Source: Promethearchaeota archaeon (GTDB taxonomy: Archaea; Asgardarchaeota; Lokiarchaeia; Sigyniarchaeales; SOKP01). From it: DNA of 64,000 nucleotides. The stretch covers positions 102,455 to 166,454 of the forward strand of contig JAHLWS010000073.1 in assembly GCA_019057795.1 (NCBI GenBank). The letters run 5' to 3'. The translations under genes and the position numbers were made by a program. Under the pieces are notes generated by a model, which worked only from the letters and a program-made list of their open reading frames with translations, made no database searches and was not told where the DNA came from. This document shows positions 1 to 19,158 of this stretch, one piece after another (the stretch's first letter is position 1; the number at the start of each line of letters is the position of its first letter).

Positions 1-142
1 AGCTGTACCAAGATTAAGACCAGCGAAAATGAAAAAAACAAATAGGGTTTCCAGAAGAGCAAATCGACCTGAAAGCGGAAGATACTGTGCTAAATGTTTG
101 CAAACCTTACTAAAAGAATCTGTGTGGCAAGCAGAAGTTTAA
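1..142 (+). CDS. rpl34e: 50S ribosomal protein eL34, 3' part (truncated by window start)
   Basis: Manual translation of frame 2 gives AVPRLRPAKMKKTNRVSRRANRPESGRYCAKCLQ...*, with the RP.GG..C..C-like motif; it precedes cmk-rpl14e as in the usual archaeal order. Confidence 0.9.
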   Translation, partial: AVPRLRPAKMKKTNRVSRRANRPESGRYCAKCLQTLLKESVWQAEV

Positions 143-227
143 TCCGATCTTGGAATTTCAAAAATATTAAATAATTTCTGGTTTTAATTTCTTTTAATAG
201 CTAAATTCAATTTTGAGAAATGTAAAA

Positions 228-764
228 ATGATAATTACGATATCTGGGCTTCATGGGACAGGAAAGAGCGTAATTGCTAAACTAATGGCAGAACGCCTCG
301 GGATACTCTACTACTCAACGGGACAAGCGTTTCGAGATCTTGCAAAAGAAAAGAACATGTCTTTAGAAGAATATACGAATTTTGTCGAAAATCATCCTGA
401 CATTGACAAAGATTTAGATAATAAAGTCGTTAACATGGCAAAAAAAGGTAATATTATTATTGATAGCCAATTAAGCGGACATATTCTCAAATCCATAGCA
501 GATTTTAGAATACACTTAACTTGTCCATTAAAAATACGTGTTAAAAGAATGTCAGGGAGAGATCAAACATCTTTCGAAGAAAAATTAAAAGAAACAACAT
601 TAAGGGAAAAATCTGAATTGGAACGCTTCAAAAACCTCTATAACATTGATTTAAGCGATAAAAACTTGATTAACGAATTTTTTGATTTAATTATTAACAC
701 AGAAAATTTATCTATTGAAGAAGTGTTAGCTAAAATCCTATCTGAGTTAAAAAATCTATTTTAA
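228..764 (+). CDS. cmk: Archaeal-type cytidylate kinase
   Basis: MIITISGLHGTGKS P-loop; lies between rpl34e and rpl14e; ATG at 228 preferred over TTG at 213. Confidence 0.9.
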   Translation: MIITISGLHGTGKSVIAKLMAERLGILYYSTGQAFRDLAKEKNMSLEEYTNFVENHPDIDKDLDNKVVNMAKKGNIIIDSQLSGHILKSIADFRIHLTCPLKIRVKRMSGRDQTSFEEKLKETTLREKSELERFKNLYNIDLSDKNLINEFFDLIINTENLSIEEVLAKILSELKNLF

Positions 765-901
765 ACTTTTTCTACGAAAAAAATCATAAAAAATTTATAA
801 TTGAAATTATTCCTTAATTTACGATAGATCGTTTATCTTTTCTGAAAATTAAAAAATTCAGTAATGATAAATTTATTGAAAATAATTTGGTGACAAATTA
901 T

Positions 902-1174
902 ATGAGCGTATACGATATTGGAAGAATTTGCGTTAAAACTATGGGAAGGGAAGCCGGAAACTATTGCGTTGTCGTCGATATCATCGATAAAAATTATATT
1001 TTAGTTGATGGTTTGGGAATTCGCCGAAGAAGAGTAAATTATAAACATATAGAACCGACAACAGACACGATTGAAATCAAAAAAGGTGCTTCACATGAGA
1101 ATGTCGAAACTGCTATTAAAAAAGCAAAATTAGAAAAAAAAATGAAAGAGACAGTTTCCATTCCTACAAAATAG
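902..1174 (+). CDS. rpl14e: 50S ribosomal protein eL14
   Basis: IGRICVKTMGREAGNYCVVVDIID KOW-type signature; ATG at 902. Confidence 0.95.
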   Translation: MSVYDIGRICVKTMGREAGNYCVVVDIIDKNYILVDGLGIRRRRVNYKHIEPTTDTIEIKKGASHENVETAIKKAKLEKKMKETVSIPTK

Positions 1175-1255
1175 TTATTTAACTTCTAAAAAACCATAAA
1201 AATAGAAATATTGCTGAGCGTCGCCATTGTGCGTCGTTAGCGCTAATTTTTTTTT

Positions 1256-1358
1256 GCAGACATTGCCTAGCCTGGTACGGCGCCGGCTTGGAGCGGAAAA
1301 ACGGTCCCAGAAAGCCGGTGTGTGAAAGCATCCGAGGGTTCGAATCCCTCTGTCTGCG
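1256..1358 (+). tRNA. tRNA-Ser(GGA) with a 19-nt BHB intron at position 37/38 (intron 1294-1312)
   Basis: Acceptor stem GCAGACA/TGTCTGC, anticodon stem CCGGC/GCCGG, long variable arm, T-arm GAGGG-TTCGAAT-CCCTC, discriminator G; BHB central helix UUGG/CCAG with bulges AG|C and AA|A. Confidence 0.93.
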
Positions 1359-1415
1359 CTTTATTACTTATAGAAATAAGGAAAGTAATAGAATCAAAAA
1401 ATCTCTTTTATTAAT

Positions 1416-2090
1416 TTAAACGTCAGGAAATTCCATAGCTTTAGCTTTCCCACCACCCATCATCTGCTCCATTCCTCCCGATGCTTGTGTCTGTAATTTA
1501 AAAATTCTTTGAAGAAGCGTGTTCACACCAAAACTACATAGAAAATACCAAGCAGTAAAATTTATCCAACCAGCTTCTAATCTAATAGTTCTGGCAACGC
1601 CGTACACAAGGGCAGTCCAGGGATATACCGTAGAACCCGTAGTACCCGCCATCATGTTGCCTATGAGCACTACATCGTTAGCATTCATTGGAGACAACGC
1701 AATGGGGTTATTCAAGAAAACTCCTCTTACTACTGTAAATATGATTATCATTGGAACGAATGTTATGCAACTGGGCAACATGCGCCTTAAAGCCATTTTC
1801 TGCTGTGATTGTTTTACCATCGAATCCAATCTTTCCCACCTCTTTCTTAACTTGTTATATTTTTCTGGATCCGTTTCAGATAATTCAATGATTTTTGCTT
1901 TTTCTTCGTCATGAGCCTTTTTTATAACTTGTTTTCTATTAATTTCATCAGTATCAATTAACCATTTAGTTAGTCCAGTACTAATTACTGCCGTTATAGA
2001 AGCCATTAATAATATAAAAATCATGGACCCAGGCGGGAAGCTAATCCAATCTAAAAAAGCATTTGATCCTTGTAATAATAAGAAAAGCAT
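1416..2090 (-). CDS. EMC3/TMCO1 (DUF106, Oxa1 superfamily) membrane insertase
   Basis: TM helix, then coiled coil, then TM helices; WYFLCSF motif; follows secY. Confidence 0.85.
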   Translation of the reverse strand: MLFLLLQGSNAFLDWISFPPGSMIFILLMASITAVISTGLTKWLIDTDEINRKQVIKKAHDEEKAKIIELSETDPEKYNKLRKRWERLDSMVKQSQQKMALRRMLPSCITFVPMIIIFTVVRGVFLNNPIALSPMNANDVVLIGNMMAGTTGSTVYPWTALVYGVARTIRLEAGWINFTAWYFLCSFGVNTLLQRIFKLQTQASGGMEQMMGGGKAKAMEFPDV

Positions 2091-2187
2091 AGTTATATTG
2101 AAGTAATCTTAATAATTTTTTAAACTTTTCAGATTAAAATTTTATAATAAAAAAATGTGTTACCATTTCTTTTGGAGAAGATTCTCA

Positions 2188-3642
2188 TCAATCCATGCCT
2201 AAGAAAGCGCGCATGCCCGGATATTGCTGTGCCGCCATTTCTTTTGCAATTTGCTCAGAGTATTGATGCACGATGCCTATAGCTATCAAAAGTCCCGTGC
2301 CTGAAGTCAACGCACCTAGCGAATCTGCGAAGAAACTCATTACTGCGATTATAATGCCGTTTATAATGATCAAAGTTGGAATATATCGCTTTAAAATCCG
2401 CTCAATTATTTTGTCCGAACTTCGAAATCCGGGAATCTGCATCCCAGAATCTATTATTTGCTGGGCTATATCGCGCGGCGCAAGTCCTGAGACTTCGACC
2501 CAAATCTTACCGAGCATAATGCACAGAAATATAAATATAATTAGATATATTATTGCTTTGAAGGGGTCAGCTAGTAACTCCAACAATCCTTGAGGAGGGG
2601 TAAGGTAATAAAGTAAACACCCTGGTAGTGGGACTAAATAATCACCACCTCCCCCCGTTGGAACACTGTCGAATTTACCTATTAAATCAAGGAACCATCT
2701 AGTATCGTCATTTCTAAAACCAGAATTAGGTCCAGCAATCATTTGCCCGAAAAATAGAAAATTGGCGTATAGGGCGTTAACTAAAATAACAGGGATATTT
2801 GAAACATATAGTAACTTCATTGGATATTTCCCCTTGAAACCTCTATACCCTTTATAGGCTAACGGAATTTCGACTCTAGTAGACTCGAACCAAATAACTA
2901 TTAGAAATATGCCTAAAGTCGTAATTCCTCCAAAAATGGAAGGTAGTCGGTCATGCCTCCAAAACAGTTCAGCTGTATCTATATTAGGATTCGTCAAAGA
3001 TTGAATGAAAGCAATAACAATTCCTCTTGCTTCATTAGTTTCACCTACTCCAATAAAACTAAATAAATTCCAAAATATTTGTCCAGCAACACCCGTAGCG
3101 ATAAATAAGGAGATTCCGCTTCCAATTCCCCAACCTTTTTGTAGTAACTCATCGAGTAAGATAATGACGACTCCAGAAAAAAGTAATTGCAAAAATATAA
3201 ACGTCATAGCCTGAAGGTCTAACGGTCCAAAAGCACCTCCGATTATATATGCGATGATATTGAACACAGTCAAAAACATTGCGAATACTTTTTGAGAACC
3301 GCTAAACATAGCCCGATCGTATGGATCGCTCAAATCAACTTTTATGATTTTGGAACCTAAGAGTAATTGCATTATTAATCCTGCCGTTACTATTGGGCCT
3401 ATACCTAATTCTGTAAGCGTACCTTTCTGACTTGCTAAAATAACTCTTAACCAATAATAATAATCTGTGGTGGCTTGAGTGGTTACTCCATAAAGCGGAA
3501 TATTTGACATTATTAAATATATTATTAATGCGAGCCCTGTCCACATTAACTTTTCTTTGAAACTTACTTCTCTCTGAGGCTGTTTGATTTCAGGCATTAC
3601 CCGTACAAAAGGAGAGAAGAATTTGAGGAATTTTCCGGTCAT
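2188..3642 (-). CDS. secY: Protein translocase subunit SecY/Sec61-alpha
   Basis: GTLTELGIGPIVTAGLIMQLL, GIGSGISLFIA and YPMKLLYVSNIPVIL motifs. Confidence 0.98.
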   Translation of the reverse strand: MTGKFLKFFSPFVRVMPEIKQPQREVSFKEKLMWTGLALIIYLIMSNIPLYGVTTQATTDYYYWLRVILASQKGTLTELGIGPIVTAGLIMQLLLGSKIIKVDLSDPYDRAMFSGSQKVFAMFLTVFNIIAYIIGGAFGPLDLQAMTFIFLQLLFSGVVIILLDELLQKGWGIGSGISLFIATGVAGQIFWNLFSFIGVGETNEARGIVIAFIQSLTNPNIDTAELFWRHDRLPSIFGGITTLGIFLIVIWFESTRVEIPLAYKGYRGFKGKYPMKLLYVSNIPVILVNALYANFLFFGQMIAGPNSGFRNDDTRWFLDLIGKFDSVPTGGGGDYLVPLPGCLLYYLTPPQGLLELLADPFKAIIYLIIFIFLCIMLGKIWVEVSGLAPRDIAQQIIDSGMQIPGFRSSDKIIERILKRYIPTLIIINGIIIAVMSFFADSLGALTSGTGLLIAIGIVHQYSEQIAKEMAAQQYPGMRAFLGMD

Positions 3643-3905
3643 AGTTTATCAGCACAAAACCTTTAGTGAGTATAATCCTTTTTAGTTAAAATAAAAGTTT
3701 CTCAGTTTAGAAATGTAACTTAAAAAAAAATGAATTTAAAAAAAACTTTTTGATTTAATAAGTTCGTTTAAGCAGATATTTTGTTTCTTTATATAATTCA
3801 AAAACATTATCGTTAAAAAATAGTAGAAAAAAAATAATTTAAAAAAATTTTGAAATAAATTTTGCTTATACTTTTGCTTTGTTTTGCTGAAGAGTCTTAA
3901 CCCGT

Positions 3906-4205
3906 TTAAAATAACGAGCCAATTCCCGTAGGTTCTTCCTCAACTTCTTCTTCCTTTTCCTTCTTCTTTTTCTTGGAGGCTGCTTTTGCAGACACTGAAG
4001 AAGCAACCGGAGCGGCCATCACTGGAGCTGCGGCGGCAGAACTGATTATTGATTCAATGTCAGCCTCCTTAAGCCCTGCTACTACTTTTGTAAGTTGAGC
4101 TTTATCAACAGTTACATCTACAGCTTTTAATATCTTTTCGATGTTTGCTTCTGTAATTTTCTTATTTGCTTTGTTAAGCAGTAACGCAGCATATATTGAT
4201 TCCAT
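3906..4205 (-). CDS. rpl12: Ribosomal stalk protein P1 (aL12)
   Basis: MESIYAALLL start, Ala-rich hinge, acidic tail ending GIGSLF. Confidence 0.95.
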   Translation of the reverse strand: MESIYAALLLNKANKKITEANIEKILKAVDVTVDKAQLTKVVAGLKEADIESIISSAAAAPVMAAPVASSVSAKAASKKKKKEKEEEVEEEPTGIGSLF

Positions 4206-4278
4206 CTTTTATACCTCTTTTTTTTTATCCAATTATTATTAAAATTTGTGTTTATTTATTTTATTTAAAAAAATTAAT

Positions 4279-5235
4279 TTAATTACCAAATAAGCCTCCA
4301 ATTCCAACTTCTTCTTCCTCATCTTCTTCTTTTTTGCCTTCTTCTTTCTTAGTTGAAACATGTAGGTCTTCTCCAAGTACTATAGCCTTGATAGTGATAG
4401 CATTTGATACGGCTTTTCGGATATATTCGTCCCTCATATCGTCAAAATAAACAGGTAATTCAAAAAGAATTCCAAGAGCCTCTCGGTGTGCTTTTTGGAT
4501 TAACGGTTCAATCGTTTCTTTATCGATAATGCCTAGTTCTAAAGCCAAACTTCGTGCGCCGAAGTACGCAAATGCAAGCTCTTGTTGGAATTGTTCCATA
4601 TCCATATACAGAATTTCCTCAGGAATTATTTCACCGTCGCTCCACGCGTAATGGATTTTAATAAGCGATTTAATTGGAGCTACACCTAACTTCTTTAAGA
4701 CTGCTGCCTGTTTTACGTTAACGTAATCTCCAGCTGAGTGCGTTCGCGTATCTTCTCTAACCCAAATCGTATCGTTCTGGATTTTGGTTGGAAGCCGGAG
4801 CGTCATGTTTAATTCACTGATAACTTGTCCCGTGGGCAATCCTGTGTCCCCCTCAGTAACCCAAATATCTACTGGCGTTATCTCGTTAGGTTTAGCAGAG
4901 ACCATCCATTCATTTTCATTAAATATATTCTTTAATTCAAAGATATCTATGTTGGTAAAACATAATGCGGATTGTCCTGAAATTTTTTCGGCGAGTTCAT
5001 CTAAGTTGTCTTTTTTAGAATCGTGTTTATACTGTTCTACGGCTCTTAGTTGAAGCTTCTTTTTTGACATTCTTATGATTGCTTTCCCTCTTAAGATTTT
5101 TCGCATCTCTTGAATTTGCTTGTCGTTTAATTTAGCAACTTCTATTACAGCAATGTTTTTATGTTTTTTAAACAAATCAACTAAATGAACAACTTCATCC
5201 AATTTCCATTGATGTATTTCTTTTTTTCTGATCAC
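4279..5235 (-). CDS. rpl10: Ribosomal protein uL10 (P0)
   Basis: WK..EV N-terminus, GDTGLPTG motif, acidic tail ending GIGGLFGN; operon position. Confidence 0.95.
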   Translation of the reverse strand: MIRKKEIHQWKLDEVVHLVDLFKKHKNIAVIEVAKLNDKQIQEMRKILRGKAIIRMSKKKLQLRAVEQYKHDSKKDNLDELAEKISGQSALCFTNIDIFELKNIFNENEWMVSAKPNEITPVDIWVTEGDTGLPTGQVISELNMTLRLPTKIQNDTIWVREDTRTHSAGDYVNVKQAAVLKKLGVAPIKSLIKIHYAWSDGEIIPEEILYMDMEQFQQELAFAYFGARSLALELGIIDKETIEPLIQKAHREALGILFELPVYFDDMRDEYIRKAVSNAITIKAIVLGEDLHVSTKKEEGKKEEDEEEEVGIGGLFGN

Positions 5236-5239
5236 TATT

Positions 5240-5968
5240 TTACACCTCTATACCCTTCAAAAACTGTTCATCAATTTTTATTGGATGCCCCATTGTAGTT
5301 TTTAAAAACATAGATTTAATATTGTTATATTTATGAGGCATCTGATCAGCAACGTACTCAACGACAGCTTTCATGTTTTCAAATATTTTATCCTTATCCA
5401 TAGATTTTTTTCCTACTTTAACTTGAATACTTGGTTGCTTCTTTAATTGAATTCGAATAACTTTTAAGTATCTCTCAATTGCCACGTTTAAATCACTCGG
5501 ATTGGAAATAATACCATATCCACTTGGGAAAGGTTTCGGCATTTTACCTAGCGGTCCAAGGAATCTCGCTAAATATCGAGCTACATTTGGCATCATTTTG
5601 TCTTCTACTACGAAGAAATTGTATTTCTTTACAAATTTTTTCTTATACTTTTTTTCTTCGTTATTTAGTTTGATTAAACCGTCTTTATCCATTGTTTCGA
5701 GCCCAAGATTCTTAGCTTCAAGAAGTATCTCGTCTGACGCAATTACGCAGATGTTAGGCCTATCTTTAGTTATTATGTTATTAGGTAGGATTATTTCCTT
5801 ATCGATCCTCTGCTTAGGGTCCTTGAGGTTAATGTCTTTCAAATTCATAATGAGGTCAATTGATTCGTCAAATTTCCTGACTTTATCTTTAAAGCCTTCC
5901 TTTTTAATAATCGAATGTTTAATTGCAGCATCTAACGATTTTTTTAATAGTTTGTCATCAATTTTCAT
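5240..5968 (-). CDS. rpl1: Ribosomal protein uL1
   Basis: RKFDESIDLIMNL, LGPLGKMPKP and KTTMG motifs. Confidence 0.96.
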   Translation of the reverse strand: MKIDDKLLKKSLDAAIKHSIIKKEGFKDKVRKFDESIDLIMNLKDINLKDPKQRIDKEIILPNNIITKDRPNICVIASDEILLEAKNLGLETMDKDGLIKLNNEEKKYKKKFVKKYNFFVVEDKMMPNVARYLARFLGPLGKMPKPFPSGYGIISNPSDLNVAIERYLKVIRIQLKKQPSIQVKVGKKSMDKDKIFENMKAVVEYVADQMPHKYNNIKSMFLKTTMGHPIKIDEQFLKGIEV

Positions 5969-5971
5969 TTT

Positions 5972-6527
5972 TTACAGCTCCCCCTTTATCATGTCGTCAT
6001 ATTCTCCATTCTCAATCTTTTTCTGAATTACTCGCGGGTCCTCGCCTTCTATTGTGGCTCCAATTGACAACACTGTCCCTATTACGGTCTTTACAGCAGT
6101 TTTGAAGGTTTTATCTAAAAAGATATCTTTTTTAGCGTTAGTAACGTTAACTACCTGTTCAAGAGTTAAATCTCCAATTTTTTCCTCAGAACTATTCGAA
6201 CTCCCTTTTTCAGCGCCTAATTCTTTTAAAAGTAGTGAAGCTGTACTTGGCGTCTCTACGAATATCTCAAACTGTTTTGTCTCAGGATCGCATTCGATTC
6301 TAACGGGTACCGTTAAACCTTTAAAAAGCATGGTTTTTTCGTTAACTGCGTCCACTACGTCCTTGATGTTTGCATAGGAAATCGATTCAATTTCCGTTTA
6401 TGCCAGTAGGACCTACAGCGGGACCTTTACATAAATAAAGCGATTTGCTTTATGTAATAGGCGGTCCTCCGCTCGCAGATCCCCCTGTAACTAGTGCCTT
6501 AACAATGATTTTGTTTGTTTTACTCAT
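5972..6527 (-). CDS. rpl11: Ribosomal protein uL11, split into three exons: join(6457-6527, 6398-6426, 5972-6369), 165 aa
   Basis: ATG at 6527 preceded by GAGG. Removing 6427-6456 and 6370-6397 gives 498 nt encoding MSKTNKIIVKALVTGGSASGGPPIGPAVGPTGINIKDVVDAVNEKT..., in frame with ORF 5972-6355; first gene of the L11-L1-L10-L12 operon. Confidence 0.93.
6370..6397 (-). other. Candidate BHB-type mRNA intron 2 of rpl11 (28 nt, frameshifting, contains TGA)
   Basis: Perfect central helix GCAU/AUGC, bulges AA|A and AA|A, intron hairpin GGAAAUUG/CGAUUUCC, exon pairing UG/CA plus GUCCU/AGGAC; product ATA AAC ATC = I-N-I. Confidence 0.87.
6427..6456 (-). other. Candidate BHB-type mRNA intron 1 of rpl11 (30 nt, contains an in-frame TAA)
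   Basis: Exon helix GGACC/GGUCC, central helix GCCU/AUGU (3 of 4 pairs), bulges AU|U and AA|A, intron helix ACAUAAAGC/GCUUUAUUU (8 of 9 pairs); product CCT ATA GGT = P-I-G. Confidence 0.8.
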
Positions 6528-6870
6528 TTTCCTCGTCAAAAATTTTTATTTAAATTTTATACTCAAAATTAGTGATTTAAAGGCTAAGAAACATAAAAAT
6601 AACGCATAATCTTTCGACTTTATTCATTCCAATATCTTTTTTATATTGAAACCGTATTATTATTACGTTCTAAGTCCTTCAAAAAACTAATTTTGAACTT
6701 AGTGTTTTTTAAAAATGAAATGAAATTAAAAAATTTTATGAAAATTATTATTTTTTGTTGACATGTATTTATTTATCTAATTAATAATATCATTAATTGA
6801 GAAACAAATAGAGTAATTATAGAACTAAATCTATTCAAATTTTAAGAACATTAAAGGGAAAGGTTGAAAG

Positions 6871-7716
6871 ATGATCCTTTGGATATTAAATAGTGATTCG
6901 GGCATTAAATTGTTATATAAATCCTTTTTGAAAACAGACGCTGATGAGGATATCGTTTCTGGATTCTTAACGGCCTTTCACCATTTCTCTATGGAAGAGT
7001 TTCACCAATCACTGGAATCTATAGAAATGGGTGGATTAAGGTGGATATATATATTGGAACCAAAATTCAAATTGCTTTTCGTTGCTGCTGGTATAAAAAG
7101 TACTAAAACGGGGATTTTGATGGGTAGACTTAACGTTATAAAAGAGTCTTTTATAAAAGAATTCAAGCCAGTTTGGATAAAAAAAGGACATAGTTGGAAT
7201 GGAAATATGAATGTTTATTTACCATTTCTTAAAGTAATTGAAGATTATTACGGCCAATGGGAGGAAGTAGAATCAATAAGTCAAGTAGCGGACTTTTTTG
7301 ATATTTTAGGAGTATTTCAACAAATTTTTATTATTTTGAGAAGTATCTTAGAAAATAAAATGTATACCAAATCAAAAAACATAATTTTACAGAAAATAGA
7401 AGAAGTATTTAAGAAATTTAGAGAACAAGAGAAATTTAAAAACCAACCCGAATTTGAAAATATTACATTTTCAAAAGAGAATTGGTTCAACATAATAGAT
7501 ATCAATTTGTTGAAATGTGAAAAGGAAGTCATTACTACATATTTAAAGTCTATTCTTTACGAGACCGTTCAAATTTTAAAGGAAGTAAAAGGGAAAAATT
7601 TGTGTTTGAAGTATTTTAGTGAAGAAAGAATTTATACCTATATTTTTAATAATATGGAATTATTGGGAGATTTGGGGTTAGATATGTATTTATTAGAACT
7701 GTTTTTGTTAATCTAA
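6871..7716 (+). CDS. Hypothetical protein with an N-terminal longin-like domain
   Basis: ILNSDSGIKLLY...DIVSGFLTAF...IEMGGLRWIY pattern typical of Asgard longin/roadblock-like domains (recognised by eye). Confidence 0.55.
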   Translation: MILWILNSDSGIKLLYKSFLKTDADEDIVSGFLTAFHHFSMEEFHQSLESIEMGGLRWIYILEPKFKLLFVAAGIKSTKTGILMGRLNVIKESFIKEFKPVWIKKGHSWNGNMNVYLPFLKVIEDYYGQWEEVESISQVADFFDILGVFQQIFIILRSILENKMYTKSKNIILQKIEEVFKKFREQEKFKNQPEFENITFSKENWFNIIDINLLKCEKEVITTYLKSILYETVQILKEVKGKNLCLKYFSEERIYTYIFNNMELLGDLGLDMYLLELFLLI

Positions 7717-7756
7717 ATTTAAGTACAAAAGCCTTTATGACTTCTTTGTATTTAAC

Positions 7757-7960
7757 TTAGAATCTACAACATAAACGACGACCAAAATCGAGATTATGTT
7801 TCAGATATTCATTAGATAGTATTTTCATAACTTTTTCATAATCTAGTTGAGTATTATAATCCTTATTGACCATTTCAGGAATATGTTCAATTTCTATTCC
7901 TGGAATACATACTAATCTAAATATCTCTTTCTTTACTTCTTCAGATATATCTTCAGTCAT
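7757..7960 (-). CDS. Small hypothetical protein (67 aa)
   Basis: ATG-started ORF with normal composition that fills the intergenic gap. Confidence 0.6.
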   Translation of the reverse strand: MTEDISEEVKKEIFRLVCIPGIEIEHIPEMVNKDYNTQLDYEKVMKILSNEYLKHNLDFGRRLCCRF

Positions 7961-8082
7961 ATAATAATAAATATTTTTTTGATTAGAAAAAGATTATCGA
8001 AAATTTGCATAATTTAGCTATAAATAATAATAATCTGTATCTTTAGGAATTTTAAATTTAAATAGAAGTCTAAAATAATTTG

Positions 8083-8760
8083 CTATTTCCGTTCTAAAAT
8101 AACTTCATGGGTAATGGTACCTATTTTCTCTATAGAAGCTTCCAGGATATCTCCCGGTTGTATTGGACCTATTCCGCTTGGAGTGCCCGTTGCGATTATA
8201 TCTCCTCTTTGCAAAGTAACGAACTTCGATAAATATTCTAAAATTTGAGGGATTTTAAATAACATATGTTTCGTATTAGAAAATTGTTTGGTTTGCCCGT
8301 TAAGCTTTAATTGAATTGTTAGGTTATGTGGGTCCTTAATTTCGCTGCTTGGAACAATTATTGGTCCTATCGGTCCAAAAGTATCGAAATTTTTGCTTCT
8401 ATACCATGGTAAATTTATATTTCTATCGCTTTTTTGCATAATTCTCGCAGTTAAATCCAGAAAAATTGTATATCCTTGGATGTAATCGAAAGCGTTATCA
8501 ACCGAGATGTTTTTACATGTTTGGAAAATAACAAAAGCTAGTTCCACTTCGTGATCTACTCGATTATAAATCTGACTTTCATACAAAATTTTAGGATAAA
8601 TAATTGGTTTATTATCAGTTACTAGCGTATTAAGTGTTTTAACAAAAAATACTGGTTCCGTAGGAATTGGAGCATTTGTTTCTCTAATATGATCCAAATA
8701 GTTCCGTCCTAGACATACAATTTTGGTTGGATTTATATTACTATTGCCAATTTTTACCAT
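8083..8760 (-). CDS. Fumarylacetoacetate hydrolase family protein
   Basis: KIVCLGRNY, DHEVELA, SKNFDTFGPIGP and GDIIATGTPSG motifs. Confidence 0.93.
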   Translation of the reverse strand: MVKIGNSNINPTKIVCLGRNYLDHIRETNAPIPTEPVFFVKTLNTLVTDNKPIIYPKILYESQIYNRVDHEVELAFVIFQTCKNISVDNAFDYIQGYTIFLDLTARIMQKSDRNINLPWYRSKNFDTFGPIGPIIVPSSEIKDPHNLTIQLKLNGQTKQFSNTKHMLFKIPQILEYLSKFVTLQRGDIIATGTPSGIGPIQPGDILEASIEKIGTITHEVILERK

Positions 8761-9444
8761 TTAAGTCAACTCCTTCTCTAATACAACTTTATTTGTCAAA
8801 GTACCAATTTTTTCGATCGATGCTTCTATCAGATCTCCAGGTTTGATTGGTCCTATGCCTGCGGGTGTTCCAGTTGCTATAATATCTCCTGGTTCCATAG
8901 TAAAAAATTTTGAAATATTTTCTAAAAGCTCCGGAACTTTAAACAACAAATATTTAGTATTCGATAATTGTTTAGTCTCTCCATTTACTTTTAACTCAAT
9001 TTTGAGATCATGAGGATCTTTAATTTCAGAAAGACTTACAATTCTAGGGCCAATTGGACCGAAAGTATCTAATGATTTAGAGCGAAACCAAGGTAATTTT
9101 GAAACTATATCTTTAGTTTGTATCTTCCGTGCAGTTATATCGTTAAATACAGTATAACCTAAAATGTGATCGTAAGCTTGACTTGCACTCACATATTTAC
9201 ATCTATCTTTAACGATAAATGCTAGTTCTACTTCAAAATCAATTCGATTGTATTTACGGTTACTAAATATCCAGTTTGGATAAATAATTGGTTCACCATC
9301 CCCTATAAGACAATTTAATGTTTTTGGAAAAAGAACGGGTTCTTTTGGTATTTCTGACTTTGTTTCTTCAATGTGATCCAAATAATTCGTACCAATACAT
9401 ATTATTTTTGTAGGGCTAATCGTCTTTTCTCCAATTTTTATAAT
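8761..9444 (-). CDS. Fumarylacetoacetate hydrolase family protein (tandem paralog, probable ATT start)
   Basis: Same motifs as the neighbour; the frame extends upstream of 9381 as IIKIGEKTISPTKIICIGTNYL, matching the paralog N-terminus, after an AGGAGTGA SD-like site. Confidence 0.9.
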   Translation of the reverse strand: MIKIGEKTISPTKIICIGTNYLDHIEETKSEIPKEPVLFPKTLNCLIGDGEPIIYPNWIFSNRKYNRIDFEVELAFIVKDRCKYVSASQAYDHILGYTVFNDITARKIQTKDIVSKLPWFRSKSLDTFGPIGPRIVSLSEIKDPHDLKIELKVNGETKQLSNTKYLLFKVPELLENISKFFTMEPGDIIATGTPAGIGPIKPGDLIEASIEKIGTLTNKVVLEKELT

Positions 9445-9623
9445 AATACATCACTCCTTTAAGTAGTTAGTGCCTTCCGTTAAAAAAAATCGTTTAGTTC
9501 GTTGTCTTCTAGAACAAGGCAACTATACTTAATTAAATAAGATTTAAATTTTAAAGATAATTAATTTTCAGATAATAGTAAAAGATTAAATTATAAGTAA
9601 AAAATAGTTAAAACAAAGAAAAA

Positions 9624-10157
9624 TTGATTAAAATGACCGAAAAAGATGTAATTTTGACATTAAAAATTGCTATGGCAGCTATTTTTATGGCTGTTGGAAT
9701 TACTTTAAGTTATCTTAATCCATTTGGATATTTTTTCTTGTTCGGTACAAAGATAAATCCTTTCGCTCATTTAATAAATGTAATAACGGGAGTTCTAATA
9801 GGAGTTACTTTTTCTAGCATTACTGCTTTAGGTATTGCAAGTATACGGTTTTCAGCTGGAATTGGAACGATCCATGCTTTTCATGGGGGTGTATCTGGCG
9901 CGGTTGTTGTTGGAATCGTATCTCACTTTTTATGGAAAAAAAAACCAAAGTATGTTGAATATGCCGCATTTACAGAACCAATTGGTACAGTATTCATTGG
10001 TGGTACCATAACAGCTTTAATTCAAGGGTTTACACTAGCAAATCTACTATTTTTTTGGTGGTTATTTATGCTGAGCTCTGTTGTGGGATCTGTTCTAGGT
10101 TTCATAGTTTTAAAAATTCTTAAGCGCTCTGGGTATTCAAGAGATAGGTTCTACTAA
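9624..10157 (+). CDS. thiW: ECF transporter S component, ThiW family
   Basis: PFAHLINVITGVLIG, GIGTIHAFHGG and TEPIGTVFIG motifs. Confidence 0.85.
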   Translation: MIKMTEKDVILTLKIAMAAIFMAVGITLSYLNPFGYFFLFGTKINPFAHLINVITGVLIGVTFSSITALGIASIRFSAGIGTIHAFHGGVSGAVVVGIVSHFLWKKKPKYVEYAAFTEPIGTVFIGGTITALIQGFTLANLLFFWWLFMLSSVVGSVLGFIVLKILKRSGYSRDRFY

Positions 10158-10188
10158 ATACAAAAAAATTTGTTATTCTAAAAAATTT

Positions 10189-10776
10189 ATGAAATTTAAT
10201 AGAGACTTAAATTTTGGCAATTTAATTGGTCAGAAAACCCTTATCTATGGGGAAACAAATACCGGAAAAACTTTATATACCGCTAATTTTGTTCAATTTC
10301 TCCTAGAAAGTAAAAACATTGACCCTAAAGAGGTTAGCATATTAGATTTTGCTCCAAAGTTAACTTATTTTAACGATTTAAAGATTGGTGGAAGAGTTCA
10401 AGATTATTTCGAAAATAGCGTAAAATGCAATAACATTAAATTAATAGGAGAGATTATTCCCCCCCGCCTAAATGCTAAGAATAAAAATGAAATGTATAGC
10501 AACATTTGTCATAATTTTCATAAAATATATGAAATTATAGAAATTTATAACAGTAACCCAACTCCAGTGTTAATCATCAACGATATCTCTTTATATTTGC
10601 ACTTAGGGAGCAATAAATACTTAATTAATACGATAAATAAATCAAATACTTTTTTCGGAAATAGTTATTATGGTACCTCAATTGTTCGTAAATTTTCGAA
10701 TTTGTTGAGTATTAAAGAAAAGAAAAGAGTTGAATTTCTAATTAAAAATGTAGATAATCCTTTTGTAACGGAATAA
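10189..10776 (+). CDS. Small P-loop NTPase (HerA/DUF87-like)
   Basis: Walker A GETNTGKT; Walker B-like LIIND. Confidence 0.6.
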   Translation: MKFNRDLNFGNLIGQKTLIYGETNTGKTLYTANFVQFLLESKNIDPKEVSILDFAPKLTYFNDLKIGGRVQDYFENSVKCNNIKLIGEIIPPRLNAKNKNEMYSNICHNFHKIYEIIEIYNSNPTPVLIINDISLYLHLGSNKYLINTINKSNTFFGNSYYGTSIVRKFSNLLSIKEKKRVEFLIKNVDNPFVTE

Positions 10777-10872
10777 TATGCTAGTGAATTTTGGTAAATA
10801 TTTTAAGAAAGTTATTTAATTCACTTATACTCTTTAATATTAATAAAAAATAATATTCGCTTAGTATAAGAG

Positions 10873-11535
10873 ATGATTAAACTGAAATCAAAAGTGCGAG
10901 TAGTTCTTTTCGGACCTCCAGGAAGTGGAAAAGGCACGTTCTCTTCTCAAATAAAGAAAGTTTTACCTGATATACCACATATTAGCACTGGGGATATTTT
11001 CCGAGAAAATTTAAAAAATGAAACACCCCTTGGTTTAAAGGCTAAAGAATATATGGATAAGGGTGAATTAGTTCCGGACGAAGTAACTATTGATATGGTG
11101 AGGGATAGACTAAGCAAAGAAGATGTAAAAGAACATGGATTCATATTAGACGGTTTTCCAAGAACTCTAACCCAAACTGAAGCTTTAACGGAGATAACTA
11201 AAATAGATTTATTCCTTTTATTAGATGTAAGTCGCGATATCATTACAAAAAGAATTTTAGGAAGATACTCTTGTAAAAATTGCAGTGAAATCTATAATAA
11301 ATACACTCTTCCACCAAAAACAGAAGGTATTTGCGATAAATGTGGCGCTGAAATTAAATTTGAACAAAGAAGCGACGACAATGAAGAAACCTTAAAAAAT
11401 CGGTTAGATACTTACGAAAAGAACGCAAAACCAATAATAAAATACTACAAAAAGAAAAAGTTGATGAGAAAGATAAACGCTGAAAATACTTTAGAATTAA
11501 CCGAGAAGGATATTATAAAAATACTCGAAGTGTAA
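10873..11535 (+). CDS. adk: Adenylate kinase, bacterial/eukaryotic long type with Zn-lid
   Basis: GPPGSGKGT, HISTGDIFR and FILDGFPRT motifs; CxxC...CxxC lid; RSDD. Confidence 0.95.
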   Translation: MIKLKSKVRVVLFGPPGSGKGTFSSQIKKVLPDIPHISTGDIFRENLKNETPLGLKAKEYMDKGELVPDEVTIDMVRDRLSKEDVKEHGFILDGFPRTLTQTEALTEITKIDLFLLLDVSRDIITKRILGRYSCKNCSEIYNKYTLPPKTEGICDKCGAEIKFEQRSDDNEETLKNRLDTYEKNAKPIIKYYKKKKLMRKINAENTLELTEKDIIKILEV

Positions 11536-11570
11536 ATTTATTTTTACAATAATTTTTTTATAGGATTATA

Positions 11571-12326
11571 ATGAAATATAAGATCTGTATTGCAATTCCA
11601 ATTAAATCTGATGATCTTAATATAAATAGTCAATTAGTAGAAACATCGCTAGAAAAAAAGCCTGATTTAATTGAATTTAGATTTGATTACATAAATGATG
11701 TAAAATTTATCACTTTTTCCTTTTTAACAGAATTATTGAATCTCATCACTCCTAAAATACCAATAGTCTTTACTTTTAGGAGAATTCAAGAGCGAGGTCA
11801 ATATAATCTTAATAAAGATGAACGATTACAAATTTTAAAGTTATTGGTTGAAGCAAAACCCGATTATTTGGACATAGAAATGGAGTCTGATATTAAGATT
11901 TTGAAAACAATTACAAATTTAGCTTACAAAAACAATGTAGATTTAATTTTCTCTTTTCATGATTTTGAAGATACTCCTACATATGAAGAAACAATTACTC
12001 TTCTAGATAAGTTTGAAGATAAGTTAATTCATGAGTGCTCTATAGATTTAGATAAAATGGGTGAAAGCGTCTTTAAATTAATATTTACTCCTCAAATTTT
12101 TGAGGATAATTTAAACATTTTAAAAATTTGTAGAACACTTTCACAAGACGGCAAAAAGATAGTATGTTTTGCTATGGGCGAATTGGGGATTTTTTCCAGA
12201 ATTATGTGTGTTAAATTTGGGTCATTATGGACATATGGTTCTCTAAGAGATAAAACAGCTCCTGGACAAATTAATATCAATACTTTACGAGAAATGTATC
12301 AATTATTATTTAATTCTAATTCTTGA
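11571..12326 (+). CDS. aroD: Type I 3-dehydroquinate dehydratase
   Basis: DLIEFRFD, FTFR, SFHDF, AMGELGIFSR and TAPGQ motifs. Confidence 0.92.
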   Translation: MKYKICIAIPIKSDDLNINSQLVETSLEKKPDLIEFRFDYINDVKFITFSFLTELLNLITPKIPIVFTFRRIQERGQYNLNKDERLQILKLLVEAKPDYLDIEMESDIKILKTITNLAYKNNVDLIFSFHDFEDTPTYEETITLLDKFEDKLIHECSIDLDKMGESVFKLIFTPQIFEDNLNILKICRTLSQDGKKIVCFAMGELGIFSRIMCVKFGSLWTYGSLRDKTAPGQININTLREMYQLLFNSNS

Positions 12327-13821
12327 GATTAATGACATTCCGATCCAGGTTAATGTCATAATAAACAGGAAATCTTTGACCAACGAGTTCTTGCTTTTCT
12401 AATTTAATTAAAATATCTGGAACAGCATTAATAAAAGCTATAGTACGACGATTATTTTCAAGAGTTCCTATTACTATCCCTTGCTTGGGTATTCCAGTTC
12501 GATCATAGGTTATTGTATATCCATCAATAGTAAGATTTCCATTAGCTTGTTCTATAGGTTTTTGTAATTGTCTAGCTAAGATTGATTGTTGTATTTCAAC
12601 CTGATTTTCTTCACCCCATTGTATAAAAGGTGGTTCAGTACCGTAAATACCAAAGGACTGTTTTGTATTATATCCTCCATTTGCTATAACCATTACCTTC
12701 AATAAAGGATTTTTACGAATAAGATATACAGCAGAAACAATTGCGTGTAAAGAATAATTACTCCATGGACCACCAAAAAATGGAAGCCCACCTGTAATTG
12801 ATAATGGCCGAGGATCATCTTCTTTTATCCCTAATTCATTTTTAATGATTTCTACAATAGATGGAAAACAACTATAAATATCAAATAAATCGATATCATC
12901 TAGTTTAAGTCCAGCTTGTCCTAAAGCTAGATGTGCTCCTTCTTTTGTTGCGGGTGAATTATAAAGCTTTGGACGTTGAGTAATATTAAAAATATTTTTT
13001 AAGTCTGCGCCTCCCATTGGATAAATCCAGAGTTTAGGGTCAATTTTAAGCTTCTCAGCGTTTTCTTCACTGGTCATTATTAACGCGCTAGATTGATCTA
13101 CAAATACATTAGAACACATAAGTTTAGTGTAAGGGTGCGTGATATAACGGTTACTAAGAGTAGGTGTTATAATTTCTTTAGCAGAATAAGAACAATTGGT
13201 CCAAGCGTGGGCGTTATTAGATGCAATCTTTGAGAAAATTTCAAAGATTTTACCTATATAATTTCTATGCTCTTCCAAACTTCTTCCTGAAGCAGTGCGT
13301 ACAGCAGTCTCAAGAATGGCGTATGTAACGGAAGGATATTTCAACTTATATTTATTTGCAAATTCATTTATACCATTCCACAATTTACCCTCCATATACT
13401 TAGGATCCTTCCATTGAGGCCAATTTAAATTAAGTTTACCCTTTTTTGCCTTGTATCTGGAGTAAGAGGCTTCTCCACCGGTAATCAGAATTGCTTGACT
13501 TTCTCCAGAAGTTATAGCCTTCGCTGCCCTATTTACTAACATCTGAGGACTATCTCCCCCATCAGGTAAATAAACTTTATGTTCGGGTTTTAAACAGAGT
13601 ATCTTGCTAAGTTCTTCTGGAGCATCTTCGTAAGACCAACTATTAATATTAACCATATAAACTGAATTAATAAAATCCTTCAAATTTAGCGCACCAACAT
13701 CGTTTAAAGCTATCTTACATGCTTTAGCCATGAGATTTAGCGGATCAAGAGGATCAAGAGTATGTTTATGTTGTGTGAACTGAGCAGCTCCTACAATTAT
13801 TGGATGTGATTTATTACTCAT
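12316..13821 (-). CDS. Thiolase-like protein (acetyl-CoA acetyltransferase family, TLP1-type C-terminal domain)
   Basis: GGDSPQ, DIYSCFPS and TGGLPFFGGP motifs. Confidence 0.85.
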   Translation of the reverse strand: MSNKSHPIIVGAAQFTQHKHTLDPLDPLNLMAKACKIALNDVGALNLKDFINSVYMVNINSWSYEDAPEELSKILCLKPEHKVYLPDGGDSPQMLVNRAAKAITSGESQAILITGGEASYSRYKAKKGKLNLNWPQWKDPKYMEGKLWNGINEFANKYKLKYPSVTYAILETAVRTASGRSLEEHRNYIGKIFEIFSKIASNNAHAWTNCSYSAKEIITPTLSNRYITHPYTKLMCSNVFVDQSSALIMTSEENAEKLKIDPKLWIYPMGGADLKNIFNITQRPKLYNSPATKEGAHLALGQAGLKLDDIDLFDIYSCFPSIVEIIKNELGIKEDDPRPLSITGGLPFFGGPWSNYSLHAIVSAVYLIRKNPLLKVMVIANGGYNTKQSFGIYGTEPPFIQWGEENQVEIQQSILARQLQKPIEQANGNLTIDGYTITYDRTGIPKQGIVIGTLENNRRTIAFINAVPDILIKLEKQELVGQRFPVYYDINLDRNVINLKN

Positions 13822-13925
13822 AATTGATTGATTAATGTAAAAATTATTTTAAAAATTAAATATGAAAAGAATAAGAAACTCTTATCAATTATTATTTAAT
13901 AACAGATAAGAAATTATATTTAGTA

Positions 13926-14093
13926 TCATCTATCAAATACAGTACCACAACTACCGCATTTAATTCTTTTTTTATAAACTGGGGCACCCTGCATTGAATA
14001 ATAGAGTACTTGTGTTTTATCAGGCTCTTCGTGTAATTTCCGAGGACTTTCTTCTCCACAATTTCCACATTTGGTTCGTTTAGTTTCTGTCAT
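13926..14093 (-). CDS. Small zinc-ribbon protein, 55 aa (not in ORF track)
   Basis: Manual translation MTETKRTKCGNCGEESPRKLHEEPDKTQVLYYSMQGAPVYKKRIKCGSCGTVFDR*, two CxxC motifs. Confidence 0.8.
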   Translation of the reverse strand: MTETKRTKCGNCGEESPRKLHEEPDKTQVLYYSMQGAPVYKKRIKCGSCGTVFDR

Positions 14094-14228
14094 TTTTTTC
14101 TCGAAGGTTTTTTGAATAAATAATATGTTATATAAATTTAAATTTAGGTTTTACAATAAATGTGCGTTATGTCATCTTTACAAATAGAAGTGAAAATGTA
14201 AATAGATTCATTGTTAAAAATATAATAA

Positions 14229-14370
14229 ATTAATTATCTGTACTTCCTAGAATTTGCGTTAATTTTTTCCGATACTCTTCAAAAGCTTTCCTCCCTCCCT
14301 CCCTAAGCTTAAGCAATGTATTAGGTTTCTTATTCTTAAAACGCTTATAACCAAATTTTTTCAGTTTCTT
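14229..14370 (-). pseudogene. Remnant of a winged-HTH (ArsR/HTH_34-like) regulator, C-terminal half
   Basis: Reads KKLKKFGYKRFKNKKPNTLLKLREGGRKAFEEYRKKLTQIL with no start codon and no N-terminal half. Confidence 0.5.
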
Positions 14371-14379
14371 TCTATTCTC

Positions 14380-14904
14380 TCAAATATTAGTTTTTTCAAT
14401 GATCTCACTCGTGATTTCATCAATTGTTTTGTTTGTGGTGTTAGTAACAATTTCTGCTGATATTTTATAATAAGGTTCTCTTTGTTTCAATGCGCTTTCG
14501 ATTTCTTTAATTGGATCTTCTTTATCGATTAATGGTCTAGTCTCTTTCCCATCGATCATTACTCTATTAAAAATTTCTTTAGGGCTAGCTGTTAATAAAA
14601 CGATATGACAGGTTTTTTTTAAATTTTCTATATTTACTTTATTTAAAACAATTCCTCCCCCGCATGATATAATTGTTTTTTTTAGTTCTGCTGCTTTCCT
14701 ACAAGCTTCAATCTCGTATTCTCTAAATTTCGCTTCACCGTTTTCCGAAAAGATATTAGGAATTGGTTTACCTGTCATCTCTATAATTAGTTGATCGGTT
14801 TCTATAAATTTATAATCTTTTCCTAGATATTCCTTCAATGCCTTTCCTACTGTGGATTTACCCGTTGCCATAAAACCAATCAACGCAATAGAATCTTTAA
14901 TCAT
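14380..14904 (-). CDS. aroK: Shikimate kinase, bacterial AroK type
   Basis: GFMATGKSTVG, GEAKFR, SCGGG and RPL motifs. Confidence 0.93.
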   Translation of the reverse strand: MIKDSIALIGFMATGKSTVGKALKEYLGKDYKFIETDQLIIEMTGKPIPNIFSENGEAKFREYEIEACRKAAELKKTIISCGGGIVLNKVNIENLKKTCHIVLLTASPKEIFNRVMIDGKETRPLIDKEDPIKEIESALKQREPYYKISAEIVTNTTNKTIDEITSEIIEKTNI

Positions 14905-15005
14905 ACCAAATTAAACCAAATAGTATTTTTTGATAAACCTAACTATATTTTCAATTTTTTTTCTTTGTTACTGGTATCCTAATATCAAGAAAAAAAGTAG
15001 AACAA

Positions 15006-15560: not shown

Positions 15561-15668
15561 TTCTTCAATCCATCCTTTATTTGTTTTCTACTTATAGCTA
15601 AATAATTATAAATTAATTTTATTCTTAAACATATTAATAGTTTTAAATTTAATAATTATAGTAATAAA

Positions 15669-17449: not shown

Positions 17450-17453
17450 ATAT

Positions 17454-17720: not shown

Positions 17721-17789
17721 CTATCCACGAAAATGATCTATTTAGTATAAGATGTAGGTTATATTTTTAATGGGGAATTATTTAATAAA

Positions 17790-19103: not shown

Positions 19104-19158
19104 TGTTTGTATAATATAATATTTTTTGTGTAAACCAAGAACTTACGCGTGAAACAGA

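What the first reader, a model, noticed from the sequence alone, without database searches (positions are those of the whole stretch)
6370..6397. Intron 2: near-canonical BHB whose register alone predicts the correct reading frame
The central helix GCAU/AUGC is perfect, both bulges are AAA, and the intron hairpin is GGAAAUUG-AAU-CGAUUUCC. The neighbouring alternative register (CAUA/UAUG) would remove 26 nt and stay out of frame, whereas the GCAU/AUGC register removes 28 nt and restores G-I-N-I-K. Both mRNA introns and the tRNA-Ser intron in this window share the same 3' splice bulge AA|A, consistent with one processing enzyme. The insert is bounded by an AAAC direct repeat, so DNA alone cannot fix the junction; only the BHB rule does.
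Basis: partly seen in the sequence, partly recalled or inferred. Interest (0 to 1): 0.85.

Follow-up and report, generated by a model that had tools for sequence, protein, structure and literature searches.

The report
tRNA-type mini-intron in Asgard rpl11 mRNA
A 28-base insert that breaks the only gene for ribosomal protein uL11 in an Asgard (Promethearchaeota) archaeon has the shape, cut sites, conservation pattern and intron-free relatives of an intron cut out by the tRNA-splicing enzyme. In the papers I could search, this kind of mRNA splicing is experimentally confirmed only for the cbf5 gene of another archaeal phylum.

Summary
The minus strand at 6370-6397 is a 28-nt insert in the codons G-I-N|I-K of the single-copy uL11 gene. 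It has a GCAU/AUGC helix, two AAA bulges and an 8-bp hairpin. A second 30-nt insert lies at 6427-6456.

Removing both inserts at the bulge-helix-bulge (BHB) cut positions gives a 165-aa uL11. Its N-terminus matches intron-free orthologs from residue 7 on. Removing 26 or 27 nt instead gives early stops.

Syntenic relatives at 90-94% DNA identity lack both inserts exactly. Across 48 distinct alleles:
- The 4-bp helix is 99.5% paired.
- 7 of 8 hairpin pairs covary.
- In 8 alleles with no sliding ambiguity, the only protein-preserving junction is the BHB cut.
- All 22 intron-bearing alleles in an unbiased set fix the exon codons GGC-ATA, against 11 of 65 intron-free alleles.

The genome encodes two EndA paralogs and RtcB.

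The G000 copy is near-canonical (a C·U mismatch next to the 5' bulge). Its minimum-energy fold prefers a 5-bp helix, so the register is settled by comparison with relatives, not by this sequence alone.

This scan had already noted similar introns in this and other Asgard genomes. I found no paper reporting them in the library I searched.

The parts
6457..6527 (-). rpl11 (uL11) exon 1, 71 nt, from ATG 6527 to ...CCU AU
   Evidence: It reads MSKTNKIIVKALVTGGSASGGPP plus the first two bases of the Ile codon.
6427..6456 (-). Intron 1 (site B), 30 nt, with an in-frame TAA. BHB elements: exon helix GGACC/GGUCC, central helix GCCU/AUGU (one C·U mismatch), bulges AU|U and AA|A.
   Evidence: It is exactly absent in syntenic relatives G050 and G051. 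The central helix is a perfect 4 bp in other species.
6398..6426 (-). Micro-exon 2, 29 nt (A GGU CCC GCU GUA GGU CCU ACU GGC AUA A)
   Evidence: It encodes (I)GPAVGPTGI(N), identical to intron-free orthologs.
6370..6397 (-). Intron 2 (site C), 28 nt: the finding
   Evidence: Absent in G050 and G051. Found as 28- or 29-nt homologs in 14 genus genomes and 45 metagenome contigs.
6400..6403 (-). Central helix, 5' strand GCAU (exonic: codons GGC AUA)
   Evidence: Invariant in all 48 intron-bearing alleles. GGC-ATA is found in 22 of 22 intron-bearing alleles against 11 of 65 intron-free alleles.
6372..6375 (-). Central helix, 3' strand AUGC (intronic)
   Evidence: It varies as AUGC, AUGU, GUGC and GUGU while keeping the pairing: 99.5% of cells are paired.
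6397..6399 (-). 5' bulge AA|A, predicted cut between 6398 and 6397
   Evidence: the bulge is AA|N across alleles (A 38, G 5, U 3, C 2). The rule that the cut lies between the 2nd and 3rd bulge nucleotide is from PMC2738675.
6369..6371 (-). 3' bulge AA|A, predicted cut between 6370 and 6369
   Evidence: A-N|A across alleles.
6377..6395 (-). Intron hairpin GGAAAUUG-AAU-CGAUUUCC
   Evidence: In 48 alleles, 7 of 8 pairs show compensatory changes, and 0 of 500 shuffles reach the observed value.
5972..6369 (-). rpl11 exon 3, 398 nt including the stop codon
   Evidence: PF00298 matches here, and this is the only L11 locus in the genome.
1256..1358 (+). tRNA-Ser(GGA) with a 19-nt canonical intron (1294-1312) ending AA|A
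   Evidence: Rfam RF00005, 42.5 bits. ARAGORN with intron mode also finds it. Fold.

Best explanation
The 28-nt insert is a bulge-helix-bulge (tRNA-type) intron in the pre-mRNA of ribosomal protein uL11.

Proposed mechanism:
1. After transcription, exon codons GGC-AUA pair with the intron's AUGC to form the 4-bp central helix. The intron hairpin closes one side and a short exon-exon helix closes the other.
2. The heteromeric (alpha-beta)2-type splicing endonuclease EndA cuts after the second nucleotide of each bulge (6398|6397 and 6370|6369).
3. RtcB joins the exons and probably circularises the intron.
4. Together with removal of the upstream 30-nt intron (6427-6456), this gives an mRNA for a normal 165-aa uL11.

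Shown here: the anatomy, the exact absence of both inserts in relatives, covariation, constraint on the exon codons, agreement between the BHB rule and the protein-preserving junction, and presence of the enzymes.

Inferred: that cleavage and ligation actually occur, and that they occur at these bonds.
For: - The gene is single-copy and otherwise broken.
- The spliced product matches intron-free orthologs from residue 7 on; 26- or 27-nt removal gives stops.
- Syntenic relatives G050 and G051 (90-94% DNA identity) lack both inserts exactly.
- A homologous 28- or 29-nt insert sits at the same codon in 14 genus genomes and 45 metagenome contigs, and 21 contigs have none.
- In 48 distinct alleles the central helix is 99.5% paired, with wobble changes only on the intron side. 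7 of 8 hairpin pairs covary. 0 of 500 shuffles reach the observed values, and slid registers reach only 23-43% pairing against 87.7%.
- 8 alleles have no junction ambiguity, and all 8 obey the BHB cut rule.
- Exon synonymous sites are frozen: GGC-ATA in 22 of 22 intron-bearing alleles against 11 of 65 intron-free alleles (Fisher 8.5e-13, not corrected for phylogeny).
- The same rule fits the protein-preserving junction at three other rpl11 intron sites. With a 4-bp helix: A 25/25, D 5/5, C 42/43, B 7/18. The other 11 B alleles have 3 of 4 pairs. Control cuts reach 1.9%.
- The genome has two about 200-aa EndA paralogs, each with PF01974 and PF02778, and one RtcB.
- Asgard archaea are reported to carry broad-specificity (alpha-beta)2 EndA (PMC5829648).
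Against:
- The G000 copy is not strictly canonical. It has a C·U mismatch next to the 5' bulge, and the minimum-energy fold has a 5-bp helix. Read by the cut rule, that fold would give a 27-nt, out-of-frame excision.
- The exon-exon helix next to the 3' bulge has only 1-2 bp, and the longer GUCCU/AGGAC pairing is not supported by covariation.
- Crude genome-wide screens gave no excess of BHB-flanked ORF-merging inserts over controls, so I did not measure a genome-wide system myself.
- The genome is a MAG with 7.5% estimated contamination.
Confidence: 0.85

Rival explanations
1. Translational bypassing (T4 gene 60 type). The ribosome takes off at AAC (6398-6396), skips 28 nt over the hairpin and lands on the matching AAC (6370-6368), so no RNA splicing is needed.
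For: In G000 the AAAC direct repeat gives matched take-off and landing codons. A hairpin and a UGA two codons downstream lie in between.
Against: In 8 alleles (for example L006, L061, L064, L053) the borders share no repeat. No matched codon pair can produce G-I-N-I-K there, yet the BHB cut does. Bypassing does not explain conservation of the 4-bp helix with wobble-only changes, or of the A-N-A bulge. Intron 1, with its in-frame stop, would need a second independent bypass.
Confidence: 0.03
2. The gene is a decaying pseudogene, or the insert is an assembly artefact. uL11 would be supplied by another copy or be missing.
For: As it stands the gene gives only a 25-aa peptide followed by out-of-frame ORFs. 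The genome is a draft MAG.
Against: There is only one L11 locus in a 100%-complete MAG. The same insert occurs in more than 55 independent assemblies. The exons remain under protein-level conservation, and the insert shows compensatory changes.
Confidence: 0.03
3. The element is cut by EndA, but mainly as a regulatory switch. Splicing would be partial or conditional, so that uL11 output is tuned and unspliced mRNA is a dead end.
For: Two or three introns are packed into about 100 nt of an essential, highly expressed gene. The G000 copies of both introns are relaxed, with mismatches next to or inside the helices. Loop residues (UC) are conserved beyond what pairing requires.
Against: Very close relatives do without any intron, so no essential regulatory role is needed. 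Nothing here measures splicing efficiency.
Confidence: 0.07

Closest known systems
BHB intron in the cbf5 (pseudouridine synthase) pre-mRNA of Crenarchaeota (Watanabe 2002; Yoshinari 2006; Yokobori 2009, PMC2738675)
   Same: A short intron in a protein-coding mRNA with a mostly relaxed BHB motif. The cut is predicted between the 2nd and 3rd bulge nucleotides. It is linked to a hetero-oligomeric EndA, and related species show patchy gain and loss.
   Different: - A different gene (rpl11) and a different phylum (Promethearchaeota, Asgard).
- Up to three introns within about 100 nt, with a 29-nt micro-exon.
- Four insertion sites in one domain.
- Presence or absence varies among near-identical alleles.
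- The cbf5 introns have cDNA confirmation; this one has none.
Canonical archaeal pre-tRNA intron at position 37/38 (hBHBh' motif; Marck and Grosjean 2003; PMC4090602)
   Same: The same geometry: 5' exon strand of a 4-bp helix, a 3-nt bulge, an intron helix, the 3' strand of the helix, a 3-nt bulge, then an exon helix. The tRNA-Ser(GGA) gene in this window is an example.
   Different: The host RNA is an mRNA, so there is no tRNA body to help recognition. The exon strand of the helix is made of codons, and their synonymous sites are therefore frozen.
HAC1/XBP1 unconventional mRNA splicing in eukaryotes (Ire1 plus tRNA ligase or RtcB)
   Same: Protein-only cut-and-ligate splicing of a short intron from an mRNA. 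It changes the reading frame, and RtcB acts as the ligase in metazoa (abstracts listed).
   Different: The endonuclease there is Ire1, which recognises two stem-loops, not EndA recognising a BHB. It is stress-regulated. No homology of the intron is implied.

Membership tests
Archaeal BHB intron (EndA/RtcB-spliced) | A 4-bp central helix between the two cut sites | tested here: met
   GCAU/AUGC in G000. 99.5% of cells are paired in 48 alleles, with variants AUGU, GUGC and GUGU.
Archaeal BHB intron (EndA/RtcB-spliced) | Two 3-nt bulges on opposite strands, each lying 3' of its helix strand and closed by a flanking helix | tested here: inconclusive
   The 3' bulge AAA is closed by only 2 exon pairs. 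The 5' bulge AAA is followed by a C·U mismatch and then 7 bp, and the minimum-energy fold shifts it to AAC after a 5-bp helix. 36 of 48 alleles have a proper closing pair; G000 is among the 12 that do not.
Archaeal BHB intron (EndA/RtcB-spliced) | Cutting between the 2nd and 3rd bulge nucleotides yields the functional product | tested here: met
   It gives a 165-aa uL11 matching intron-free orthologs from residue 7 on. The junction is unique in 8 unambiguous alleles. The rule also holds at sites A, D and C, and at B with 3-4 of 4 pairs.
Archaeal BHB intron (EndA/RtcB-spliced) | Precise absence of the insert in orthologs | tested here: met
   G050 and G051 in a syntenic alignment. 65 intron-free alleles against 22 intron-bearing alleles in an unbiased set.
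Archaeal BHB intron (EndA/RtcB-spliced) | Splicing endonuclease and RNA ligase are encoded in the genome | tested here: met
   Two EndA paralogs (200 and 201 aa, each with PF01974 and PF02778) and one RtcB (561 bits).
Archaeal BHB intron (EndA/RtcB-spliced) | The intron is removed from the RNA (spliced junction, circular intron) | not testable with these tools
Translational bypass element (T4 gene 60 type) | Matched take-off and landing codons flanking the gap | tested here: not met
   Present in G000 (AAC/AAC) but absent in 8 of 48 alleles that still encode G-I-N-I-K only after BHB-rule excision.
Self-splicing group I or group II intron, or any Rfam family | A ribozyme core or a match to a curated RNA family | tested here: not met
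   The insert is only 28 nt. An Rfam search of 6300-6560 at E<=1 gives only a chance lncRNA match.

The most novel reading that the evidence does not exclude
The N-terminal-domain coding region of rpl11 is a hotspot for a family of mobile BHB mini-introns in Promethearchaeota.

Observed:
- There are four insertion sites within about 60 nt.
- Up to three sites are occupied in one gene.
- On an 86-allele tree the site-C state changes at least 18 times.
- Near-identical alleles differ in intron content.
- Introns at different sites share a hairpin loop ending in UC and closed by Y-G.

Reading: this would point to ongoing intron gain, for example by reversal of EndA/RtcB splicing followed by reverse transcription and recombination, and not only to loss. 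[quoted passage not shown]
Probability: 0.3. Interest if true: 0.85.

Novelty: new member of a known kind. Interest (0 to 1): 0.68.

Why it matters
- **Beyond cbf5.** Endonuclease-spliced introns in archaeal protein genes are experimentally confirmed only for cbf5 of Crenarchaeota in the papers I could search. This candidate is backed by comparison with relatives but has no RNA confirmation yet. [quoted passage not shown]
- **Annotation.** Public records list these genes as truncated L11 proteins of 127-142 aa. Some of the shortest lack the L11 N-terminal domain hit. The gene calls are therefore wrong, which could affect uses that need full-length L11.
- **A natural data set for EndA.** The roughly 100 natural alleles define which parts of the motif tolerate change: the middle base of the 3' bulge, the third base of the 5' bulge, and wobble pairs on the intron side only. 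That is close to a ready-made mutational series for EndA specificity.
- **Codon constraint.** It shows that an RNA structure can freeze synonymous codon positions in a core gene.
- **Intron turnover.** The patchy distribution makes intron gain and loss in this lineage measurable.

Tried and rejected
2. **Protein look-up for a spliced product.** The best full-length hit with the G000-type N-terminus (P0004; ENA ERZ27256772, a 561-nt contig) is an intron-free allele only 92.8% identical in DNA. It includes the upstream intergenic region, so it is not evidence of a cDNA.
3. **Genome-wide screen 1.** I looked for any 16-50-nt deletion that merges two open stretches of at least 60 codons and obeys the BHB rule, against registers slid by 1-3 nt. 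There was no excess (for example 71 against 56-82 loci at the strictest level). Adjacent genes swamp the signal. Relaxed introns and those near other introns, such as these two, are missed. The screen is uninformative and is not evidence of absence.
4. **Genome-wide screen 2.** I looked for BHB geometry plus a 5-nt loop ending in UC and closed by Y-G. There was no enrichment over other loop endings, so by this screen the loop motif is not enriched genome-wide.
5. **A longer exon-exon helix** (GUCCU/AGGAC) from the minimum-energy fold is 78% paired with no covariation, so it is not part of the conserved motif.
6. **ARAGORN intron calls** across the genome were too unreliable to compare tRNA 3' bulges quantitatively.
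7. **First automated junction test.** Using the gap placement of the DNA alignment failed, because synonymous differences move the gap. I replaced it with the protein-preserving test.
8. **hppA check.** The H_PPase family hit is uninterrupted over positions 1-624 of 645. I did not pursue it.
9. **Literature.** Seven searches found no report of BHB introns in Asgard protein-coding genes.

Full report
**What is there.** The finding lies on the minus strand inside the first gene of an L11-L1-L10(P0) ribosomal protein cluster.

From ATG 6527 the frame reads MSKTNKIIVKALVTGGSASGGPPIT and stops. The only long uL11 open frame starts far downstream, at 6355. The genome is a 4.95-Mb, 87-contig MAG with about 32% G+C, 100% estimated completeness and 7.5% contamination. 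It has one L11 C-domain locus and no intact L11 N-domain anywhere. The single uL11 gene is therefore interrupted.

- GCAU (6403-6400) pairs with AUGC (6375-6372).
- AAA bulges lie at 6399-6397 and 6371-6369.
- The hairpin is GGAAAUUG-AAU-CGAUUUCC (6395-6377).
- AAAC stands at both borders.

The region folds better than shuffled sequence (z = -2.98). A second 30-nt insert with an in-frame TAA lies at 6427-6456.

**Consequence of excision.** I cut after the second nucleotide of each bulge. That rule is stated for archaeal BHB motifs in PMC2738675. It also follows from the canonical 37/38 tRNA geometry described in PMC4090602.

- The exons are then 6527-6457, 6426-6398 and 6369-5972. Together they make 498 nt encoding a 165-aa protein.
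- Its N-terminus from residue 7 (...IVKALVTGGSASGGPPIGPAVGPTGINIKDVVDAVNEKTMLFKGLTV) is identical to that of intron-free orthologs.
- Removing 26 nt (the CAUA/UAUG register) gives a stop at codon 38. Removing 27 nt (the 5-bp helix of the minimum-energy fold read by the same rule) gives a stop at codon 42.

**How canonical is it?** Not strictly.
- In the 4-bp register the 5' bulge is followed by a C·U mismatch before 7 hairpin pairs.
- The exon-exon helix beside the 3' bulge has 2 pairs.
- The minimum-energy fold prefers GCAUA/UAUGC with an AAC bulge.

From this one sequence the register is therefore not uniquely fixed by structure. Comparison with relatives settles it.

**Comparative evidence.** Relatives are MAGs labelled Promethearchaeota or Promethearchaeia, that is, Lokiarchaeia-type Asgard archaea.

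- *Exact absence.* Whole-region alignment of window 1-20000 with syntenic contigs of close relatives (90-96% DNA identity) shows both inserts exactly missing in G050 and G051. Across the five relatives compared, the only other in-gene difference of 12 nt or more is a 21-nt low-complexity insert that G005 carries in the P0 tail.
- *Homologs at the same codon.* 14 of 36 genus loci carry a 28- or 29-nt insert there. A pattern scan of metagenome contigs added 45 with the insert and 21 without.
- *Covariation.* In 48 distinct alleles (alignment A2), pair counting gives these results:
  - The central helix is paired in 99.5% of cells. The exon strand is invariant, and the intron strand varies only through wobble-compatible changes.
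  - 7 of 8 hairpin pairs show compensatory changes.
  - No shuffle in 500 reaches the observed values.
  - Sliding the partner by 1-3 columns drops pairing from 87.7% to 23-43%.
- *Register.* Eight alleles have no repeat at the borders. In all eight, the only junction that gives G-I-N-I-K is the BHB-rule cut. The rival CAUA/UAUG register needs a pair that most 28-nt alleles lack, because that column is a G closing the hairpin.
- *Canonical relatives.* 36 of 48 alleles have a proper closing pair after a 3-nt 5' bulge. G000 belongs to the relaxed minority.
- *Codon constraint.* In an unbiased set of 87 distinct alleles, every one of the 22 intron-bearing alleles uses GGC-ATA for the Gly-Ile codons that form the helix. 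Only 11 of 65 intron-free alleles do (Fisher 8.5e-13, not corrected for relatedness).

**The rule generalises.** rpl11 of this lineage has four insertion sites within about 60 nt:

| Site | Position in the protein | Length (nt) |
|---|---|---|
| A | TGG\|SAS | 28-38 |
| B | PPI\|G | 29-36 |
| D | PAV\|G | 28-30 |
| C | GIN\|IK | 28-29 |

- Of 76 species-level genomes, 38 have at least one intron (C in 16, A in 17, B in 10, D in 6). Some have three.
- Among cut pairs that preserve the conserved peptide, one with a 4-bp helix placed exactly 2 nt upstream of both cuts exists in 25/25 (A), 7/18 (B), 5/5 (D) and 42/43 (C). The other 11 B alleles have 3 of 4 pairs. Only 1.9% of control cuts reach 4 bp.
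- On a tree of exon 3 from 86 alleles, the site-C state changes at least 18 times. G000's own 13-member clade (SH-aLRT 99) holds B+C, A+C and intron-free members. Recombination between the gene's 5' and 3' parts could inflate this count.

**Machinery.** G000 encodes two separate EndA paralogs of about 200 aa. Each has the N-terminal and the catalytic domain. One aligns with the catalytic half of fused EndAs and the other with the structural half. The genome also encodes one RtcB. This fits the (alpha-beta)2 enzyme with broad substrate range reported for Asgard and TACK archaea (PMC5829648). The same window holds a tRNA-Ser(GGA) gene with a canonical 19-nt intron.

**What is not shown.**
Splicing itself is therefore inferred.
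- The shared AA|A bulge is a weak argument for one enzyme, because the 3' bulge is A-N-A with any middle base across alleles.
- My two crude genome-wide screens were swamped by noise. I therefore did not measure independently how many other genes are split.
- Earlier notes of this scan list many candidates in this genome and in other Asgard genomes, one with reported RNA-derived support. I treat these as unchecked leads.

**Rivals.**
- *Translational bypassing* fits G000's AAC/AAC repeat. It fails in the alleles without any repeat and does not explain the helix conservation.
- *Pseudogene or artefact* is excluded by single-copy status, recurrence in more than 55 assemblies and structure-preserving substitutions.
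- *A regulatory, partly spliced element* remains possible but is not needed, since close relatives lack the introns.

**Comparison and novelty.** The mechanism matches archaeal BHB splicing, and the closest precedent is the cbf5 pre-mRNA intron of Crenarchaeota. That paper says splicing of other archaeal pre-mRNAs had not been confirmed. Seven literature searches found no report for Asgard protein genes. The nearest is a 2026 preprint on Asgard tRNA introns.

I file this as a new member of a known kind. Its unusual features are several introns and a 29-nt micro-exon in an essential gene, and fast turnover.

**Verdict.** Observation confirmed; interpretation supported with the caveats above. 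Confidence is 0.85 that this is an EndA/RtcB-spliced mRNA intron.

Noticed in passing
L196, L201, L082 (rpl11 loci of other Promethearchaeota); window 6398-6527 for comparison: rpl11 has four distinct mini-intron sites (A, B, D, C) within about 60 nt of the N-terminal-domain coding region. Some genomes carry three at once, and 38 of 76 species-level genomes carry at least one.
   Followed up: partly
window 6384-6388 and 6441-6445; introns in L014, L018, L050, L154, L196 and others: Introns at all four rpl11 sites tend to have a hairpin whose loop ends in UC and is closed by Y-G ('UCG'): B 25/26, D 7/7, C 49/58 plus 8 with UCA, A 9/20. The UC is invariant in 48 site-C alleles. It is not enriched among BHB-like hairpins genome-wide. 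This could reflect common ancestry or a bound factor; it is unexplained.
   Followed up: partly
L212:5594-5623 (relative G005), equivalent to window about 13963, minus strand: G005 carries a 30-nt insert with stop codons and a GUAAAGAUUCUUUAC hairpin. It lies inside a small zinc-ribbon-like ORF (...KCGSCGTVFDR) that is uninterrupted in the window. This is a possible further mRNA mini-intron in a relative.
   Followed up: no
whole genome G000; window 1256-1358: ARAGORN in default mode finds no tRNA in the 64-kb window. With intron mode it finds only 29 tRNAs in the 4.95-Mb genome, 16 of them with introns and several of those calls dubious. tRNA genes here are heavily interrupted and poorly detected.
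   Followed up: no
P0005-P0007, P0057, P0085, P0091, P0099 and others: Public gene calls for intron-bearing alleles are truncated '50S ribosomal protein L11' entries of 127-142 aa. Those of 127-128 aa lack the Pfam L11 N-domain hit. The introns have gone unannotated.
   Followed up: partly
window 6427-6456: Intron 1 in G000 and three near-identical metagenome alleles is a 30-nt short form of the usual 35-36-nt site-B intron. Its central helix carries a C·U mismatch (GCCU/AUGU), whereas some other species have a perfect GCCU/AGGU or GCCG/UGGU.
   Followed up: partly
window about 6724 (intergenic, upstream of rpl11); L211: Relative G005 has an extra 44 nt containing a palindrome (TTGAACAAG...CTTGTTCAA) in the rpl11 upstream region. 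Its meaning is unknown.
   Followed up: no
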